Below are positions 1,667 to 63,639 of a stretch of 64,000 nt of DNA, piece by piece. Below the pieces are notes generated by a model, which did not search any database, was not told where the DNA came from, and saw only the letters and a program-made list of their open reading frames with translations. Both the position numbers and the translations under genes were made by a program. Location: contig OZ024745.1 of assembly GCA_964016885.1 (NCBI GenBank), positions 24,056,001-24,120,000 on the forward strand, written 5' to 3'. The first letter of the stretch is position 1. Each line of letters starts with the position of its first letter. Source of the DNA: Eledone cirrhosa. Lineage: Eukaryota.

Positions 1667-1988
1667 ATGCTTTTGTGTTTTTGTGTGTGTGTTTGCATGT
1701 GTAGTTTTATTTTATTTTTCCTTTCCTTCTTTCTTCTCCAGCCTCACTTTCATATAGATTGCATTTTTGTTTTTAAAATCCAAATTCAATAAACAGACCA
1801 GGATTTTTTCATTCTGAGGATTGAAAGCAAAATCTTTTGCTTTTAAGAAACCACTGGTAAATGGAATAATTGCCTTATGTTGTTTATTACATAACTATAT
1901 ATATATATTTATAAAAAAAACATGAGAAGAAAGAAGAATACTGCGTGGTTTGCACATCGGTTACATATGATAAAAATAGTCCTTCGTC

Positions 1989-7262: not shown

Positions 7263-7359
7263 TTGGTTGAACAGTGTTATGTGTGTGTGGTGGTCAATAT
7301 GGTTGTTAGGGTGTTTATGGGAGTCTGTGGGGTGGATAGTTGTGAGTGTGTGGGTGTTG

Positions 7360-8357
7360 TGGTGTGGTGGTAGTGGTGGTGGTGGTGGTAGTGGTGGTGG
7401 TGGTGGTAGTGGTGGTAGTGGTGGTAGTGGTGGTAGTGGTGCTGGTGGTGTGGTGATATGGTGGTGTGGTGGTGTGGTGGTGGTGGTAGTGGTGGTAGTG
7501 GTGGTAGTGGTGGTAGTGGTGGTAGTGGTGGTATGGTGGTAGTGGTGCTGGTGGTGTGGTGGTGTGGTGGTGTGGTGGTGTGGTGGTGCTGGTGGTGTGG
7601 TGGTATGGTGGTGCTGTTGGTGTGGTGGTGGTGGTGGTAGTGGTGGTAGCGGGGTGGTGGTGTGGTGGTGGTGGTAGTGGTGGTGGTGGTGGTGGTGGTA
7701 GTGGTGGTAGTGGTGGTAGTGGTGCTGGTGGTGTGGTGGTATGGTGGTGTGGTGGTGTGGTGGTAGCGGTGGTGGTGGTGGTGGTGGTGGTAGTGGTGGT
7801 AGTGGTGGTAGTGATGCTGGTGGTGTGGTGGTATGGTGGTGTAGTGGTGTGGTGGTATTGGTGGTGGTGGTGTGGTGGTGGTGGTAGTGGTGGTGCTGGT
7901 GGTGTGGTGGTGGTGGTAGTGGTGGTGTGGTCGTGTGGTCGTGCTGGTGGTGTGGTGGTGTGGTAGTGCTGGTGGTGTGGTGGTGGTGGTGGTAGTGGTG
8001 GTGTGGTGGTGTGGTCGTGCTGGTGGTGCTGGTGGTAGTGGTGGTGGTGCTGGTGGTGGTGTGGTGGTGCTGGTGGTGGTGTGGTGGTGCTGGTGGTGGT
8101 GTGGTGGTGTGCCAGTGAATGTTTCTAGGGTCACTGAAGCAGAAGGGTTTATTTTTATGGCGGCAATCGCCATTGTTAAGTGTCGTCAGCGGCTCTCTGC
8201 TGCTCTGAACATCCACAATAGTTGAGGTGGCGATGGAGGGATGTTTGTTATTCTGTAAGTGGCAGTGGTGGTGGTGGTTGTGGTTGTGGTGGTGGTGGTG
8301 GTGTTGGTGGTGTTGGTGGTGTTGGTGGTGGTGGTGTTGGTGGTGTTGGTGGTGTTG

Positions 8358-8389
<32 letters not shown>

Positions 8390-8451
8390 GGTTGTGGTTG
8401 TGGTGGTGGTGTTGGTGGTGTTGGTGGTGGTGGTGTTGGTGGTGTTGGTGG

Positions 8452-8482
<31 letters not shown>

Positions 8483-9060
8483 GGTGGTGGTTGTGGTGGT
8501 GGTGGTGGTGGTGGTAGTGTTGGTGGTGGTGGTGTTGGTGTTGGTGGTGGTGGTGGTGGTGGTGGTAGTGTTGGTGGTGTTGGTGTTGTTGGTGGTGGTG
8601 GTGTTGGTGGTGGTTTTGGTGGTGGTGGTGGTGGTGGTGGCTGTAATTGTGGTTGTGATAGTGGTGGTGGTGGTGGTGGTGGTGGTGGTGGTGGTGGTGG
8701 TTTTGGTGGTGCTGGTGCTGGTGGTGGCTGTAATTGTGGTTGTGATAGTGGTGGTGGTGATGGTGGTGGTGGTGGTGGTGGTGGTGTTGGTGGTGGTTTT
8801 GGTGCTGGTTGTGGTTGTGTTGTGTGTGGTTTATGGGGTGGGGTGGTAGGGGGCGATGATGATGGTGAAGGTGATGGTTGCGTGTGTGTGGGGGGGGGGG
8901 GGTGATGATGATGTTGAAGGTGGTGGTTGTGGTGGTGGTGGTGGTCGGGTGGTGGTTATGGTGGTTGTGGTGGTTGTGGTGGTGGTGGTCGGGGGGGGGG
9001 GGGGGTTACCATGGTGATGGTTGTGGTGGTGGTGGTCAGAGTGGTGGTTTTTGTGGCGGT
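7360..9060. repeat. (GGT)n-based compound microsatellite
   Basis: ggt/tgg/gtt repeats interrupted by a ~150 bp unique island at 8111-8262. Confidence 0.95.
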
Positions 9061-9980
9061 GGTGGTTGTGTTAGATGTTGCGGTTGCGGTAGTTGTGGTG
9101 ATTGCATCAGTGAGGCAAGTTATAGTAGTGATGTTGATGTTTATTGTGACACTGCTGGTGATTGAGGTGGAGGGTTGTGATGATGAGGCAGGGATTGTGT
9201 TGGTGGTAGGGTGTGTTGGTGTAGTAGTGGTAGGGGAGGTAGTGGTTGCGGTTGTCGCAGTGGCGGTAGTGATATTGGTATTTATCGTGACATCGCTGAG
9301 TTTTGTGGTGGTGGTAGTGGTGCTGGCTACTGTTGTAGTGAGGGTGGAGTAGTTTGTGTTGGTCATTGTTGCTGTGGCAGGCATGGTGGCAACGAGTATC
9401 CTGGTGGCAATGTGATGGTATTGATGGCGAATACAACAATGGTCGTGCTGGTGATATTTACTTTATATCGATACTACCTAATAATTGTTTGGGTTACCTG
9501 CTAGTTTCATACAGGAATCAGACGTCAGATAGTGTTAACATACGTTCTGGCCGAAGTTGAGTTTCGTCAGAGCTAATATGTTTACAATATGGCTGCTCGA
9601 TAATCTAATGGTGACCTCGAAATATGTACAATATATGTAAGAAAAGAAAGAAAGAAAGAGAAGGAAGAAAAGAGAAAATGCAGAGGTGAGAACTCTCCCT
9701 ATATTGGTAACTTGTTGCCTTTGTAAAACAGAGAAGCTGCTTATTGGGTGAATATGTGGGTAGTGAAGAGGATATGTTAGGCGTGTAACACGTTTGAGTC
9801 CGACAACTAGACTCTCAAATGTCAAACTTTCAAAGGGACCTCATAACTTAAATAGCACAAGGCCTCATTTGTCCTAAATCCGACACTGAGTACTGTCATC
9901 TAATTCTTCTTTTTTGCTTACTGTAATAGTTTCATATTTCAAGTCCCAGAACTATTCAAAGTAAAGAACTATATGGACTT

Positions 9981-16972: not shown

Positions 16973-17006
<34 letters not shown>

Positions 17007-17008
<2 letters not shown>

Positions 17009-17551
17009 TAAAACATGTCTATAGAATCACCAGATAAAATATATACCATTTCCTCTCCCAATTAGCATAATCAACTATATAAAAAATCGAATAGACCAGG
17101 CTATAAGAATAAGGCTTCTATGAAGAAATCCCCAACAAATACTCGAAACTAGCCCTTCGCGTCGGCTGCGACGGAATATTTATTGAATATTTCGACAGTG
17201 TAATCGCCCAGATATACAGTTAATTAAACAGAATTAGGTGTAAAATAAACTAGGAGAAAAGAGAATACATTTATTTACCTCTACCATTGTTTCGTCCGCA
17301 TTTTGAGATTTCCAATATATTCGGAAATTCGAGCATCGGACTCTTCAGGAGTTTGCTCTAATCTAGACATTAAATTTTCCAAAGTGATCGCGCCGAGAAT
17401 ACATTCAAAATGGCTAAGAATCATGCCGTAGGAGCGGACAGGTTGGAAGGGGTGTGGTAGTTGCTTACAGCTGGTGGCTATTTGCTAGAAAGCACAGCAC
17501 AATACAGCCAAATTTGTATCTCAACCTAATGGGAGATTATTAGATATAAAG

Positions 17552-17590
<39 letters not shown>

Positions 17591-17700
17591 CGTGTTTTGC
17601 AACGGGTCACATTGTGGCTCAATGAAAAGTTAATAAATTAAATAATCAGAGCTATATATCATAAAACATGTCTATAGAATCACCAGATAAAACATATACC

Positions 17701-17704
<4 letters not shown>
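17007..17704 (-). mobile_element. Hammerhead-containing retrozyme-like element (family A, copy 1) with 45 bp terminal direct repeat, in (TA)n
   Basis: cataaaacatgtctatagaatcaccagataaaa(t/c)atataccattt at 17007-17051 and 17660-17704; colinear diverged homologue at 50586-51254. Confidence 0.85.
17277..17353 (-). ncRNA. Type I hammerhead ribozyme, extended stem II
   Basis: Minus strand reads AACUC CUGAAGA GUCCG..AUUUCCGA..UUGGAAAU..CGGAC GAAA C AAUG GUA GAGGU. Confidence 0.85.
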
Positions 17705-17766
<62 letters not shown>

Positions 17767-17917
17767 ATAGTAATAATAATAAATTTGAAGACTAAAATCC
17801 AGAGAGATAAGGATAAATATATATCAAATATATAAGAACCGTAGAGCAAATATTTATTAAAATAACAGACTAAAGTTTAAGCAAAGAATGGTGCTTTCCT
17901 TCTGTAACTCTCTCCCC

Positions 17918-18299: not shown

Positions 18300-18530
18300 T
18301 AAGTTTTAATATAGATGAGATTCTACAGGACTAGAACTGTTTCATTCTTTAGAAATCATCAGGAATCTGGCTTTCCAAAAATAAATGTAGTGGTATTTAT
18401 ATTTTTTCAGGTGGTAGGAGAGGGTGGGGAGTGGGATGGGTGTAGGTCATTGGTTGAAAGAAAAGGGAATTCATTAAAAGCTAATTCTTTAAGTCTATAG
18501 TTTATATTTAGAGTGACAAAGGCAGAACTC
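18300..18530 (-). mobile_element. Hammerhead-containing repeat (family B)
   Basis: Reverse-complement homologue of ~52495-52703; ends at (TA)n just 3' of the HHR. Confidence 0.75.
18318..18368 (-). ncRNA. Minimal type I hammerhead ribozyme
   Basis: Minus strand reads AGAUUC CUGAUGA UUUC UAAA GAAU GAAA CAG UUCUAGUC CU GUA GAAUCU; 6 bp stem I, 4 bp stem III. Confidence 0.8.
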
Positions 18531-41484: not shown

Positions 41485-42500
41485 GTATACACTCATACAC
41501 ATATATACGTACACGTACACACATATACGTACACACACATACACGTATACACTCATACACATATATACGTAGACGTACATACATATACATACACACACAT
41601 ACACGTATACACTCATACACATATATACGTACACGTACACACATATACGTACACACACATACACGTATACACTCATACACATATATACGTACACGTACAC
41701 ACATATACGTACACACACATACACGTATACACTCATACACATATATACGTACACGTACACACATATACGTACACACACATACACGTATACACTCATACAC
41801 ATATATACGTACACGTACACACATATACGTACACACACATACACGTACACACTCATACACATATATACGTACACGTACACACATATACGTACACACACAT
41901 ACACGTATACACTCATACACATATATACGTAGACGTACATACATATACATACACACACATACACGTACACACTCATACACATATATACGTACACGTACAC
42001 ACATATACGTACACACACATACACGTATACACTCATACAAATATATACGTACACGTACACACATATACGTACACACACATACACGTATACACTCATACAC
42101 ACATATACGTACACGTACACACATATACGTACAAACACATACACGTACACACTCATACACATATATACGTACACGTACATGTACACACATATACGTACAC
42201 ACACATACACGTAAACACACATACACATATATACGTACATGTACACACATATACGTACACACACATACACGTACACACTCATACACATATATGCGTACAC
42301 GTACACACATATACGTACACACACATACACGTACACACTCATACACATATATACGTACACGTACATACATATACGTACATACACATACACGTATACACAC
42401 ATACACATATATACGTACACGTACACACGTATACGTACGTACACACACATACACGTACACACTCATACACATATATACGTACACGTACACACATAAACGT
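41485..42500. repeat. 60 bp minisatellite built from CA/TA/ACGT words
   Basis: Consecutive 60-nt lines 41521-42121 are almost identical. Confidence 0.95.
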
Positions 42501-42929
42501 ATACGTACATATACACATATACGTACACGTACACATACAAACATATACGAACACAGACATATACGTACACGTACACATACACTGGTACACGTACACACGC
42601 ATACACAAATGCAGACACATGCGTATATATACACAGATATACACACATAAACACAGATATACGCATATACACAGATAGACACACACACATATATACATAT
42701 ACGTACACATACATATACACAGATACACGTACAGACACATACACATGCGCATATATATAGAGAGATACACTCACATAAACACATATACGCATAGACACAC
42801 ATAGACATACACACACATAAACATACACATATACACACACATACGCATATATACACATACACACACACATACACAGCTACACACACATACGTACACACAC
42901 ACATACACACACATACAGACACATACGCA

Positions 42930-43900
42930 TATATACACAGATACACACACATACACAGATACACACACATACACAGATACACACACATACACAGATACAC
43001 ACACATACAGACACATACGCATACACAGATACACACACATACACAGATACACACACATACACTGATACACACACATACGTACACATACACATACACATAC
43101 ACATACACAGATACACACACATACACAGATACACGCACATACTTACACACACACATACACAGATACACACATATACAGAGATACACACACATACACAGAT
43201 ACACACACATACACAGATACACACACATACACAGATACACACACATACAGACACATACGCATACACAGATACACACACATACACAGATACACACACATAC
43301 ACTGATACACACACATACGTACACATACACATACACATACACATACACAGATACACACACATACACAGATACACGCACATACTTACACACACACATACAC
43401 AGATACACACATATACAGAGATACACACACATACACAGATACACACACATACGTACACACACATACATAGATACACACACATACACAGATACACACACAT
43501 ACGTAGACATACACATACACAGACACACACACATATGTACACATACACATACACAGATACACACACATACGTACACACACACATACACAGATACACACAT
43601 ACATACACATACGCATATATACACAGATACACACATATACACAGATACACACACATACACACACACATACACAGATACACACACATACACAGATGCACAC
43701 ACATACTTACACATAAACATATATACACAGATACACATATATACACAGATACACACACATACTTACACACACATACACAGATACACACACATACGTACAC
43801 ATACACATACACAGATACACACATATACACAGATACACACACATACACAGATGCACACACATACGTACTACGCACACACATACATACACATACACACACA
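42930..43900. repeat. 18 bp repeat (atacacagatacacacac) with a 240 bp higher-order duplication
   Basis: Lines 42961-43200 are repeated at 43201-43440. Confidence 0.9.
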
Positions 43901-44374
43901 TACACAGAAATTAAACCACCCACAAACAAGTATAAATATAATACTGATATAATACATGTACATACACCCTCCCCCACACACTCACACACTCACACACATA
44001 CACACATACTCACACATACTCACACATACATGTATATTACACATATTATGTACATAAACATAAACTTCCAAGCACACAAACACATACACATACACACATA
44101 TATATCCGCAAGGAGAAAAAAATGAACATGAATATGAACACACACATAGACGCATTCAATACGCACACACACACTGCAAAACGGTGACCTTGTTCTCTCA
44201 CACACACACACACACACACGTATGAATCTCGCTATCTACTCTCATATGTGTATGAGAGTATATATATATAAATATATACATATATATGTATGTATATATA
44301 TATATATATACACAGAGGTATCTAATGGCTTGATTTTTTATTTCATTGTTTTAACTTATATATGTGTGTGTTTC

Positions 44375-50024: not shown

Positions 50025-50074
50025 GAAGAATCTGAAGACGGCTATAGGAATGGCCGAAAGCTTATTACTTCTCC
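50025..50074 (+). ncRNA. Degenerate minimal hammerhead-like motif
   Basis: CUGAAGA C GGCUAU AGGA AUGGCC GAAA GCUUAUUA; stem II good, stems I and III imperfect. Confidence 0.45.
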
Positions 50075-50483
50075 TTATCTTAGTAGAGATAAAACATTAC
50101 GTTGATTTCATATATAGCCGTTAGGAGACAGGAAAGGAGGATTAAGCTTTAACTTGGTCGACAAATACAGTTGATTTCTTCCAGAGAATGATACTGCGTG
50201 ATATAAAAGGTAGGGAGAAAGGTGCATAGAGGAAGAATAGGCCCCAGTATTTAACTGGTATTTTTTTGTATATATTTCGATCTTGAAGTGATAAAAGGCA
50301 AAATTAACCTCTGTGGGATTTGAACTCTGAGTGTAGAGAGCGGGAATAAATAATGCAAAGAATTCTGTCAAAATATTGGGTGCCTATCATATCATTATTG
50401 TCATATTTCTCTTAAGCTATATTCCAGGTGTCAACAGACACATTCACATACACACACACACATACACACATATATATATATAT

Positions 50484-50585
<102 letters not shown>

Positions 50586-51249
50586 ATGATTTATGATATA
50601 TTGCTCTGATTTTTTAATTTATTAATTCTTCATAGAGCTTAAAAGTGACCAGTTGCAACATGTATATATCTATAACTTTATCTATATGTTAACCTTTATA
50701 TTTAATAATCTCCCGATAGGTTGAGATTAAATTTGGCGATATTTGGCTGCGCTTTCTAGCAGCAAGCCTACCCGCCGTAAGCAACCAATCACATTCTTTC
50801 TGGCTTGACCACAGCCACATAGCGATTCTTAGCCATTTTTGAATCTATTTTTAGCGGGATCGGATTGAAAAACTAGATGTCTGATTTTGAGTTTGTCTCC
50901 TGATGAATCCTAACTCAGGACATTCCTATTATTTGGATGTCTAAAAGTAAGGATGAAACCATGGTAGAGATATAATTACAGTATGTACGCATTTATTCTA
51001 AGTTTAATTTTACACCTAATTGTGTATGGTTGATGATATATCTAGTCAGTTTCTACATGCTGTCGAAATGTTGGATAAATACTCGATCGGGGCCACCGCG
51101 AAAAGGCTACGTTCGGTTATTTGTCGGAGATTTCCCCATAAGAGCATTTATTCTTATAGCTTGTTCTGATTGATTTTTTATATGGTTAGTTATGCTAATT
51201 AGAAGAAGAAATAGTATATATTTTATTATCTGATGATTCTAAAGACATG

Positions 51250-51254
<5 letters not shown>
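50586..51254 (+). mobile_element. Hammerhead-containing retrozyme-like element (family A, copy 2) in (TA)n
   Basis: Colinear with the reverse complement of 17007-17670; terminal redundancy atgatttat. Confidence 0.85.
50894..50972 (+). ncRNA. Type I hammerhead ribozyme, extended stem II
   Basis: UGUCUC CUGAUGA AUCCU..GACAUUC..GGAUGUC..AGGAU GAAA C CAUG GUA GAGAUA; predicted cleavage after 50966. Confidence 0.9.
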
Positions 51255-51300
<46 letters not shown>

Positions 51301-51391
51301 TATGGAGCTGCAACCGATAGATAGTATTAACAACTGGAAAGAACGACTAAAACATTGTTTCATCGGTCCGATTTGACGAAAGACGATCGAT

Positions 51392-53035: not shown

Positions 53036-53398
53036 TTTTATATTTTTTCTTTATTTATTTTACTTGAATGTCTTTCTAATTCTCGATTTTATGCACACAC
53101 CCACAGTTTTCGAAACACAAGATTAGCTAATACCAATTCTTTAGCGGAAACAGTTAATAATTGTAAAAAGAAGAAAATTAATTATAACCTAACTTGGAAG
53201 ATCCTCAAAAGAGCCATTTCTTATCAGGGTAATAGAAAGGAGTGTGGACTATGTTCCTAAGAAATTTTTGAAATTACTAAATCGAAAGACATTCTATTAA
53301 ATAAAAGACAGGAATTAATTATCGCATGTAACCATAGAATTAGAAAGACATTCAAGTATTATAAATACAACTAAATAAATAAAGAAAAAAATATAAAA
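53036..53398. mobile_element. Putative MITE with ~50 bp imperfect terminal inverted repeats
   Basis: tttatattttttctttatttattt..tacttgaatgtctttctaattct / agaattagaaagacattcaagta..aaataaataaagaaaaaaatataaa. Confidence 0.55.
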
Positions 53399-53455
53399 TA
53401 TATGGCAGACTGGAATTGAACCATCAGCACAGTTGAGGTATGTCAGACATCAATT

Positions 53456-53521
53456 TATTTTATCTGATGAGGACGTACTGATGAAATAGCTCAGTACCTC
53501 TGAAATATGTATAATAAAATA
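53456..53521 (+). ncRNA. Type I hammerhead ribozyme
   Basis: UAUUUUAU CUGAUGA GGACGUACUGA UGAAAUAGC UCAGUACCUCU GAAA U AUGU AUA AUAAAAUA; 8 bp stem I. Confidence 0.8.
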
Positions 53522-53661
53522 TATTTGATCACATAAATGTCTATATTTATTAATATTTTGAAGTAATATTAATAACTCCAGAAAACCTTCTTGTTGAGTA
53601 CTTCTAATCTATCGTAAAATTGTATTCATTGATTAATCAATGAACCTTGTTAAACCTTTGG

Positions 53662-53696
<35 letters not shown>

Positions 53697-53821
53697 CTCA
53701 GTGTGTTTGGCCTTTTAACGTAAGTTCATTGCTCTAGTTCACTCGTTTCTATTGAGCGCTTGCCACGCATTTTGGAAGTTGTTTTTCGCTAATTTCAATA
53801 GCCGAAATGCGATTCTCGGTA

Positions 53822-63271: not shown

Positions 63272-63395
<124 letters not shown>

Positions 63396-63639
63396 TAACA
63401 GATTAAAGTTTAAGCAAAGAGTCGTTGCTTTCACCCTTATTATTATTACTATATATATATAAGCAACATGCGTTTGGTCACCTTATTCTTGGTGTCACAA
63501 TTCTTTAACGTTTTGCGTTCGATCTGGGTGGAAATGTATCAATTACTCACTCATTGAGGGCTTCATAGCTGCCTCTCATAATTCGATAAACATCTACTAT
63601 CGTGCATCAGCAACTTCGGTTATACTCATTATTATTAAT

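What the first reader, a model, noticed from the sequence alone, without database searches (positions are those of the whole stretch)
17007..17704. (TA)n-embedded, terminally redundant ~650 bp hammerhead element: candidate new retrozyme family (A), with a second copy at 50586-51254
Seen: a non-coding unit of ~653 bp plus a 45 bp direct repeat sits inside (TA)n with one type I HHR in its middle. A diverged colinear copy lies 33 kb away in the opposite orientation. On the HHR-sense strand both copies end at the same place (..GACAUG.UUUAU running into TA) but start at different points (45 vs ~9 nt of redundancy). Known: metazoan non-LTR retrozymes and Penelope pLTRs carry type I HHRs and can yield circular RNAs; described metazoan retrozyme units are usually shorter and tandem. 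Inference: the insert is circularly permuted relative to the cleavage site and slightly over unit length. That fits reverse transcription of a circular or multimeric RNA, primed by a nicked (TA)n annealing to the element's own AUAUAU and running just past one full turn.
Basis: partly seen in the sequence, partly recalled or inferred. Interest (0 to 1): 0.92.

Follow-up and report, generated by a model that had tools for sequence, protein, structure and literature searches.

The report
Hammerhead retrozyme with Penelope insertion footprints
A roughly 655-base protein-free repeat carrying a predicted self-cutting RNA motif has spread to more than a thousand places in this animal genome, and its copies show the two fixed ends and mirror-image arms typical of Penelope-type jumping genes, so it is likely copied by a borrowed Penelope enzyme, probably from a circular RNA.

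Summary
Observation confirmed. Both window copies belong to a high-copy, non-coding family of 653-661-nt units with a covarying type I hammerhead (1,667 intact cores genome-wide, control 0). Copies end at one fixed site running into (TA)n, are 5'-truncated at scattered points, form head-to-tail partial tandems and one 44-unit array, and often have an inverted second arm. In 35 of 35 two-armed insertions exactly one arm stops at the fixed end and the other runs on into a ~100-nt 'tail', the Penelope-like element (PLE) footprint. No coding parent was found; three copies are fused directly to an abundant Hydra-clade PLE, a likely but unproven partner. Arms cross the ribozyme cut site without piling up there, and repeats within one insertion are closer to each other than to other copies, which fits a circular template but does not exclude uncut multimers. 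No RNA data. This is a new family of a known class (metazoan non-LTR retrozymes; PLE mobilisation already proposed in print). 'Slightly over unit length' is not typical: 108 of 135 arms are one unit or less. The scan noted the same architecture before in other repeat families (310, 422, 467 nt) of this genome.

The parts
17007..17659 (-). Copy A: one full 653-nt unit (subfamily A), non-coding; its 3' end (fixed 'end 1') is at 17007
   Evidence: longest ATG frame 47 aa
17660..17704 (-). Copy A: 45-nt head-to-tail repeat of the unit's last 45 nt (start of a second unit, 5'-truncated)
   Evidence: 44 of 45 identical
17277..17358 (-). Copy A: type I hammerhead with extended stem II and a predicted pseudoknot between the 5' flank (17354-17358) and the stem II bulge; core starts 17348, predicted cut after 17282; stem III palindrome mutated in this copy
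17541..17659 (-). Copy A: 'tail' segment between fixed end 1 and fixed end 2 (here internal to the unit), containing an expandable (TA)n at 17558-17590
   Evidence: family-wide end mapping
17030..17281 (-). Copy A: predicted long imperfect hairpin between the cut site and end 1 (weak support)
   Evidence: z -1.73; 5 of 44 consensus pairs with a change on both sides
16975..17006 (.). (TA)n target tract at the 3' end of copy A
17704..17763 (.). (TA)n tract at the 5' end of copy A
17766..17900 (-). 3' end plus tail of the Hydra-clade PLE 'H1', upstream of copy A across (TA)30; candidate mobilising family, here only a neighbour in the same TA tract
   Evidence: 91% identity to H1
50595..51255 (+). 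Copy B: one full 661-nt unit (subfamily B); end 1 at 51255
50586..50594 (+). Copy B: 9-nt head-to-tail repeat of the unit end
50889..50972 (+). Copy B: type I hammerhead, core starts 50900, predicted cut after 50966, 6-bp stem I, intact CCATGG palindrome, predicted pseudoknot
50595..50704 (+). Copy B: tail segment between end 1 and end 2 (internal here)
50470..50580 (.). (TA)n tract at the 5' end of copy B
51253..51303 (.). (TA)n target tract at the 3' end of copy B

Best explanation
This is a high-copy, protein-free hammerhead repeat (a non-LTR retrozyme-type family) whose insertions carry the Penelope footprint, and it is likely copied into (TA)n breaks by a borrowed Penelope-like reverse transcriptase, probably a Hydra-clade one, probably reading a circular monomer RNA. 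Steps: (1) inferred: tandem or partial-tandem copies are transcribed; the hammerheads, predicted to act as dimers through the CCAUGG palindrome and to be braced by a pseudoknot, cut out ~655-nt monomers that are ligated to circles; (2) shown in the DNA: copying starts at two fixed internal sites about 100 nt apart, each next to a 4-7-nt AU-rich match to the (TA)n target; (3) shown: in two-armed insertions one arm starts at each site; inferred: the two ends of one break each prime one start site; (4) shown: copying runs through the cut site and past the unit junction and stops at scattered points, giving 0.05 to about 3 units; (5) shown for one locus: a long array grew afterwards by duplication.
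For: Fixed ends into (TA)n: 45 of 51 A and 27 of 30 B end-1 arms have a TA-rich flank. One-tail rule: of 35 two-armed insertions, 29 end1+full tail, 5 end1+shortened tail, 1 end1+read-through, 0 with two plain ends or two tails. Same architecture in coding PLEs of this genome: H1 has end 1 and an 88-nt tail, P1 a 40-nt tail; described for PLEs in PMC8557442 and tied to two RT start sites in PMC11167929. Non-coding. Ribozyme conserved and covarying: 91.6% of 987 cells paired, 70 cells with a change on both sides (0 of 500 shuffles; slid controls 26-47% paired). 5' ends do not pile up at the cut site: 4 stops in 83 passes, 2.7 expected, P=0.29; 0 deletions in about 1,000 aligned positions around the cut site. 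Direct repeats within an insertion are closer than to other copies in 29 of 29 A and 26 of 27 B pairs (median 2.6% vs 6.2%; 1.5% vs 4.3%), the same as between inverted arms (2.8%, 1.5%), and closer than neighbours in the 44-unit array (mean 30 substitutions, about 5%). Three independent direct fusions to H1 without a TA spacer, one of them (L042/L100) obeying the one-tail rule across the two elements. Tail length (B median 101, A min 87 median 113) is nearer H1's 88 than P1's 40.
Against: No RNA evidence for transcription, cleavage or circles. PMC11167929 found that hammerhead cleavage was not needed and uncut RNA was the main template for a Poseidon PLE in vitro, and that its RT start site was not homologous to the target. 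Young trimers and partial tandems exist and could supply near-identical uncut multimers; gene conversion could also make neighbouring repeats alike. No nucleotide homology to H1 or any other coding PLE sampled; H1's own hammerhead-like core is non-canonical; one divergent copy is fused to the Poseidon-like P1 instead; fusions could be later insertions with deletion. Two arms (L216, L158) begin at or within a base of the cut site, so some templates may be cut linear RNA. 8 of 9 predicted Xenopus retrozymes did not cleave in vitro in the 2026 preprint.
Confidence: 0.55

Rival explanations
1. Same non-autonomous PLE-mobilised family, but the template is uncut linear multimer RNA read through young tandem copies; the hammerhead is conserved for another step or is a passenger, and no circle is needed.
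For: PMC11167929: uncut RNA was the dominant template for PAc in vitro and ribozyme mutants still inserted. Trimers with 0.3-2.3% unit divergence exist and could seed over-unit inserts. No pile-up at the cut site is expected here too.
Against: A linear template can never yield a daughter longer than its source, while 108 of 135 arms are at most one unit; units of the one long array examined differ by about 5%, more than repeats within dispersed B insertions (1.5%); direct-repeat divergence shows no excess over inverted-arm divergence.
Confidence: 0.28
2. The unit is the solo pLTR or an internal-deletion derivative of a coding PLE not yet seen, mobilised mostly as part of that element.
For: All insertion features are PLE features; the 2026 preprint found 21 of 57 Xenopus retrozyme families homologous to PLE termini. 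Genome searches score only the top 32-150 candidates, so a rare coding parent could be missed.
Against: Unit-to-unit junctions carry no ORF in any multimer seen; among 223 (overlapping) loci holding the unit, same-strand PLE ORFs without a TA spacer join at different unit positions and belong to different families; arms that read through end 2, where H1's ORF starts, continue into the unit; no homology to the 3' regions of the Hydra-, Neptune- and Poseidon-like families sampled.
Confidence: 0.08
3. Cut linear monomers are the template and the RT jumps from the 5' end of one monomer to the 3' end of another.
Against: 79 of 83 passes cross the cut site, with no deletions near it and no excess mismatches; stops there are not above chance (P=0.29).
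Confidence: 0.06
4. A DNA-level satellite or MITE-like repeat spread by recombination, with the ribozyme a chance or relic motif.
For: The long array shows higher-order duplications and a hierarchical allele spectrum (106 singleton, 120 shared variants); Rfam does not call the ribozyme.
Against: Polarised ends, random 5' truncation, the one-tail rule, ribozyme covariation across subfamilies.
Confidence: 0.03

Closest known systems
Metazoan non-LTR retrozymes (Cervera and de la Pena 2020, PMC7229834, passages and Discussion read; Li, Clavereau and Pollet 2026, 10.64898/2026.07.22.740005, parts 1-3 of 5 read, supplements not seen)
   Same: Non-coding, low-GC units with one type I hammerhead each, head-to-tail copies and dispersed monomers; PLE mobilisation via circular RNA proposed; lengths up to 972 bp reported.
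   Different: Larger than the typical ~300-nt invertebrate units; mostly dispersed, 5'-truncated, two-armed insertions whose ends are mapped here to two fixed start sites in (TA)n, which the parts of these papers that I read do not report; no homology to a coding PLE pLTR found; expression and cleavage untested here.
Penelope-like element insertions and pLTRs; Hydra clade (Craig et al. 2021, PMC8557442: passages, sections 10 and 11, supplement searched for Octopus entries)
   Same: Partial tandems, inverted 5'-truncated arm, tail at one end only, (TA)n targeting, hammerhead with a short palindromic stem III (Hydra-1_oBim row in File S2); non-autonomous PLEs with multicopy head-to-tail insertions are known (Chlamys/MRC1).
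   Different: No ORF; tail about 100 nt rather than 30-40 nt; ribozyme sits about 280 nt upstream of the main end; known non-autonomous Chlamys share 3' sequence with their partners, which was not found here.
PAc Poseidon in vitro mechanism (Frangieh et al. 2024, PMC11167929, parts 1-2 of 4 read)
   Same: Two internal RT start sites bracket the tail; both target strands are nicked and extended; AT-rich target.
   Different: Here the template is non-coding, the sites are ~100 nt apart, each has short microhomology to the target (PAc's did not), and each two-armed insertion uses one site per arm.
Minimal and canonical type I hammerheads of animals (Cervera and de la Pena 2014, PMC4209133, passages; Eckert et al. 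2023, PMC10085705, passages)
   Same: Short stem III with palindromic loop, predicted to work as a dimer; stem I-II contacts that take the form of a helix are known.
   Different: Stem II is extended by a bulge and a second helix; the bulge is predicted to pair with the sequence 5' of stem I (5-bp pseudoknot with compensatory changes).

Membership tests
Metazoan non-LTR retrozyme | Type I hammerhead in each unit | tested here: met
   Core intact in 72 of 87 A-like and 63 of 72 B-like distinct sequences; stems covary; 1,667 genomic cores vs 0 control. Computational only.
Metazoan non-LTR retrozyme | Head-to-tail tandem copies (two or more units with ribozymes) | tested here: met
   Dimers, trimers and a 44-unit array; only 12 of 44 array units pass a strict core-plus-stem pattern.
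Metazoan non-LTR retrozyme | Non-coding, GC below 45% | tested here: met
   Longest ATG frame 47 aa; GC 0.35 and 0.34.
Metazoan non-LTR retrozyme | Self-cleavage of transcripts | not testable with these tools
   Needs in vitro transcription of monomer and dimer.
Metazoan non-LTR retrozyme | Expressed as circular and linear monomer RNA | not testable with these tools
   No RNA holder listed; not evidence either way.
Non-autonomous Penelope-like element | PLE insertion footprint: partial tandem, inverted arm, tail on one end only | tested here: met
   35 of 35 two-armed insertions have exactly one plain end-1 arm; tail ~100 nt, longer than the 30-40 nt described.
Non-autonomous Penelope-like element | Terminal sequence shared with an autonomous family | tested here: inconclusive
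   None with the Hydra-, Neptune- and Poseidon-like families sampled; many other PLE families in this genome were not sampled.
Autonomous PLE / solo pLTR of one | RT plus GIY-YIG ORF between the repeats | tested here: not met
   No ORF at any unit-unit junction; no fixed breakpoint to an ORF among 223 overlapping loci.
Rfam Hammerhead_1 (RF00163) | Score above the gathering threshold of 34 bits | tested here: not met
   15.2 bits on A, no hit on B; the long stem II insert is the likely reason (inference).
Hydra-clade PLE (for the candidate partner H1) | DKT motif, CxCx5C linker, CxxC and CxH at the C-terminus, (TA)n insertion | tested here: met
   Motifs read by eye in the 713-codon frame against PMC8557442 section 11 and the Hydra-1_Obim sequence shown in its supplement; no tree built; canonical hammerhead not met.

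The most novel reading that the evidence does not exclude
A Hydra-clade Penelope enzyme, acting as a dimer at a (TA)n double-strand break, primes two fixed sites on one ~655-nt circular ribozyme RNA and copies round it from both break ends; the insertions are then a genomic record of rolling-circle reverse transcription of an animal circRNA, the chimeras name the enzyme, and the pseudoknot-braced, dimer-dependent hammerhead is what keeps the monomer circle closed.
Probability: 0.35. Interest if true: 0.75.

Novelty: new member of a known kind. Interest (0 to 1): 0.5.

Why it matters
That animal retrozymes are mobilised by PLE enzymes through circular RNA has been proposed since 2014-2020 but, in the papers read here, not shown. 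This family gives a concrete test system: two mapped start sites, a strict one-tail-per-insertion rule, a defined (TA)n target, a candidate partner with many intact reading frames in the same genome, and a ribozyme with a predicted pseudoknot. If the circle model holds, it explains how partial tandems and mirror-image arms of PLEs arise and how longer-than-unit copies are regenerated. The class itself is known, so without RNA or in vitro data this is a well-mapped new family rather than a new kind of system.

Tried and rejected
Rfam scan of the whole window returned only microsatellite-driven miRNA matches among the 150 rows shown of 340. RNA evidence: no RNA holder listed; contigs of run X1 (2,648 laid) only show the family is present and diverse; X4 (another organism code) gave 2 contigs, one 151-nt piece at depth 3, treated as no evidence; a second read-laying did not complete, so subfamily A was not examined in those runs. 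The 44-unit array as a single rolling-circle product: rejected, because it has 5-6-unit higher-order repeats and 120 shared against 106 singleton variants; the first split of the array was faulty and was redone. Poseidon-like P1 as partner, suggested by a shared last 7 nt: that match was a variant of one copy; P1's tail is 40 nt; not excluded. Neptune-like ORFs (L081, L083, L084): no shared sequence. A common fold at the start sites of H1, A and B: MFE folds did not agree; a shared GCTC...GAGC pair just after end 1 was seen by eye only. Whole-unit structure: circular MFE z -1.8 (A) and -3.5 (B) on 40 shuffles, weak. Literature: searches for retrozyme+octopus/cephalopod, octopus+Penelope+hammerhead, and Penelope-like+circular RNA+rolling circle+inverted+microsatellite found no description of this family; Repbase and Dfam could not be searched and may hold it as an unnamed repeat; the preprint's supplements were not seen.

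Full report
1. Observation. The window is G000:C5:24056001-24120000 of a 3.0-Gb assembly, an animal-like genome rich in (TA)n; its PLEs resemble Hydra-1_Obim of Octopus, so a cephalopod is likely (inference). Copy A (17007-17704, minus) is a 653-nt unit plus 45 nt of a second unit, 44 of 45 identical. Copy B (50586-51255, plus) is a 661-nt unit plus 9 nt, colinear and about 73-75% identical to A. Both lie in (TA)n and end at the same site.

2. The ribozyme. Rfam gives Hammerhead_1 only 15.2 bits (E=2) on A and nothing on B. Across 159 distinct ribozyme sequences from the loci fetched, the core is intact in 72 of 87 A-like and 63 of 72 B-like, and stem III reads CCATGG in 75 and 59; window copy A has a mutated palindrome. 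I aligned 41 sequences chosen across subfamilies (39 of the 48 picked plus the two window copies) and counted a hand-drawn structure: stem I, stem II extended by a bulge and a second helix, minimal stem III, and a 5-bp pseudoknot between the 5' flank and the bulge. 91.6% of 987 cells pair; 10 of 25 pairs have a change on both sides (5 of 500 shuffles), 70 cells do (0 of 500); slid controls pair 26-47%. The pseudoknot helix is 92.7% paired with 3 of 5 pairs changed on both sides. The structure was drawn from these related sequences, so the controls overstate significance. A core pattern occurs 1,667 times in the genome, control 0. A short palindromic stem III implies dimeric cleavage (PMC4209133, passages). 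Cleavage itself is untested.

3. The family. Searches with A and B gave 3,628 and 4,028 first-look candidates, of which 40 and 32 were scored; exact 26-mers at the 3' end occur 1,281 (A) and 545 (B) times, controls 0. There are at least three large subfamilies and several small ones. The unit is non-coding (longest ATG frame 47 aa) and 34-35% GC. To avoid score bias I took pattern hits in order of position on contig C1: 60 A loci and 31 B loci after removing overlaps, the array, and four B loci already fetched as top hits. They hold 135 arms. 81 stop at end 1, and 45 of 51 (A) and 27 of 30 (B) of these run into a TA-rich flank. 41 arms continue about 100 nt to a second fixed end, 8 stop short of it, 5 read through. 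5' ends are scattered; 108 arms are one unit or less and 27 longer. In 35 two-armed (inverted) insertions, 29 pair end 1 with the full tail, 5 with a shortened tail and 1 with a read-through; none has two plain ends or two tails. Just beyond end 1 the unit continues with 6-7 nt matching (TA)n, and about 5 nt at end 2, consistent with short annealing, but the longer internal (TA)n is mostly passed, so the enzyme, not pairing alone, likely sets the sites.

4. This is the PLE footprint. Craig et al. describe partial tandems, an inverted 5'-truncated arm and a 30-40-bp tail at one end only (PMC8557442, passages); Frangieh et al. show that the tail lies between two internal RT start sites and that both target strands are extended (PMC11167929, parts 1-2 of 4). 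Coding PLEs of this genome show it too: H1, a Hydra-clade family (motifs by eye; 32,814 first-look candidates; 14 of 16 fetched copies with a 712-713-codon open frame), has end 1 and an 88-nt tail; P1, Poseidon-like, has a 40-nt tail. The unit's tail is 98-109 nt in B and from 87 nt in A.

5. Partner. No nucleotide homology links the unit to any coding PLE sampled. Among 223 overlapping loci holding the unit, none shows a fixed breakpoint to an ORF. Three independent loci join H1 directly without a TA spacer (L010/L097/L101, L028/L147, L042/L100). In L042/L100 the left arm is H1 with its tail, the right arm starts at B's end 1, and the inversion junction lies in H1, as if one event used both RNAs; later insertion with deletion is not excluded. 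One divergent copy is joined to P1. H1 is thus the likelier partner, not a shown one. A fragment of H1 lies next to copy A in the window (17766-17900), but both target (TA)n, so adjacency means little. H1's protein has 500 unnamed relatives at E<=1e-30.

6. Template. Arms pass the cut site 83 times and stop within 6 nt of it 4 times (2.7 expected, P=0.29); two of these start at or within a base of the cut. No deletions lie near the cut site. So the template is mostly not a cut linear monomer. Using top-hit and position-selected loci together, direct repeats inside an insertion are closer than to other copies in 29 of 29 A and 26 of 27 B pairs (medians 2.6% vs 6.2%, 1.5% vs 4.3%), equal to the divergence between inverted arms (2.8%, 1.5%; 23 and 17 pairs; some loci give several pairs); 11 locus-unique variants are shared by direct repeats and 24 across inverted arms. 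The array at C1:92.986-93.016 Mb has the same two-armed, one-tail build with 44 full units on the long arm, but neighbours differ by about 5% and it shows higher-order duplications, so it grew after insertion and is not the source of most dispersed B copies. These results fit repeated copying of one circle, yet young uncut multimers or gene conversion could give the same picture, and PAc used uncut RNA in vitro. No RNA data could be brought to bear.

7. Comparison. It works like a non-autonomous PLE and meets the sequence features of metazoan non-LTR retrozymes (PMC7229834, passages and Discussion; preprint 10.64898/2026.07.22.740005, parts 1-3 of 5, which reports lengths of 51-972 bp and PLE-derived families); cleavage and circRNA, also defining, were not testable. 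Circle-templated, more-than-unit copying by PLE enzymes was proposed in 2014 and 2020. My searches found no paper describing this family or these end rules for a retrozyme; Repbase, Dfam and the preprint's supplements were not seen. Earlier notes of this scan describe the same two-armed architecture in 310-, 422- and 467-nt families of this genome; none matched this sequence. I had recorded the two-end rule before reading them.

8. Verdict. A real, new retrozyme-type family with an unusually clean PLE footprint. Identity as a non-coding PLE-mobilised hammerhead element is about 0.9; the full circle-plus-Hydra mechanism about 0.35; best explanation as worded 0.55. New member of a known kind; interest 0.5.

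Noticed in passing
G000:C1:92985617-93016027 (L211-L214): 30-kb array of subfamily B: short inverted arm with tail plus 44 full units, 5-6-unit higher-order repeats, about 28 unit types.
   Followed up: yes
G000:C1:375413005-375417741: A second array of a related subfamily, pattern hits spaced about 672 bp; not fetched.
   Followed up: no
L131-L146 (e.g. L132:3722-5863): H1, a very abundant young Hydra-clade PLE with many intact 713-codon frames, a 980-nt 3' region, an 88-nt tail and a non-canonical hammerhead-like core.
   Followed up: partly
L091:4144-6140, L301-L330: P1, a Poseidon-like PLE inserting in (TA)n with a 40-nt tail and the same one-tail pattern in two-armed copies.
   Followed up: partly
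window 53084-53700: 3' part of another Hydra-like PLE (46% to H1) followed by a hammerhead-like motif with a long stem II and a (TA)n end.
   Followed up: no
window 51230-51250 and 17017-17035: A CUGAUGA-like half core sits about 20 nt before end 1 in B (degenerate in A) and resembles the start of the hammerhead of another repeat family seen in L098, L100 and L133; possibly a relic second ribozyme.
   Followed up: no
window 18324-18362 (minus), 50032-50075 (plus), 1814-1859 (plus): Further hammerhead-like motifs found by a loose script; not checked for family membership.
   Followed up: no
window 63357-63439: A second short H1 3'-end fragment.
   Followed up: no
window 41485-43905 and 7359-9070: A 60-bp minisatellite of 40 copies and a long (GTG)n tract.
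   Followed up: no
L081:4309-7122, L083:2275-5562: Long open frames of Neptune-like PLEs (938 and 1096 codons stop to stop).
   Followed up: no
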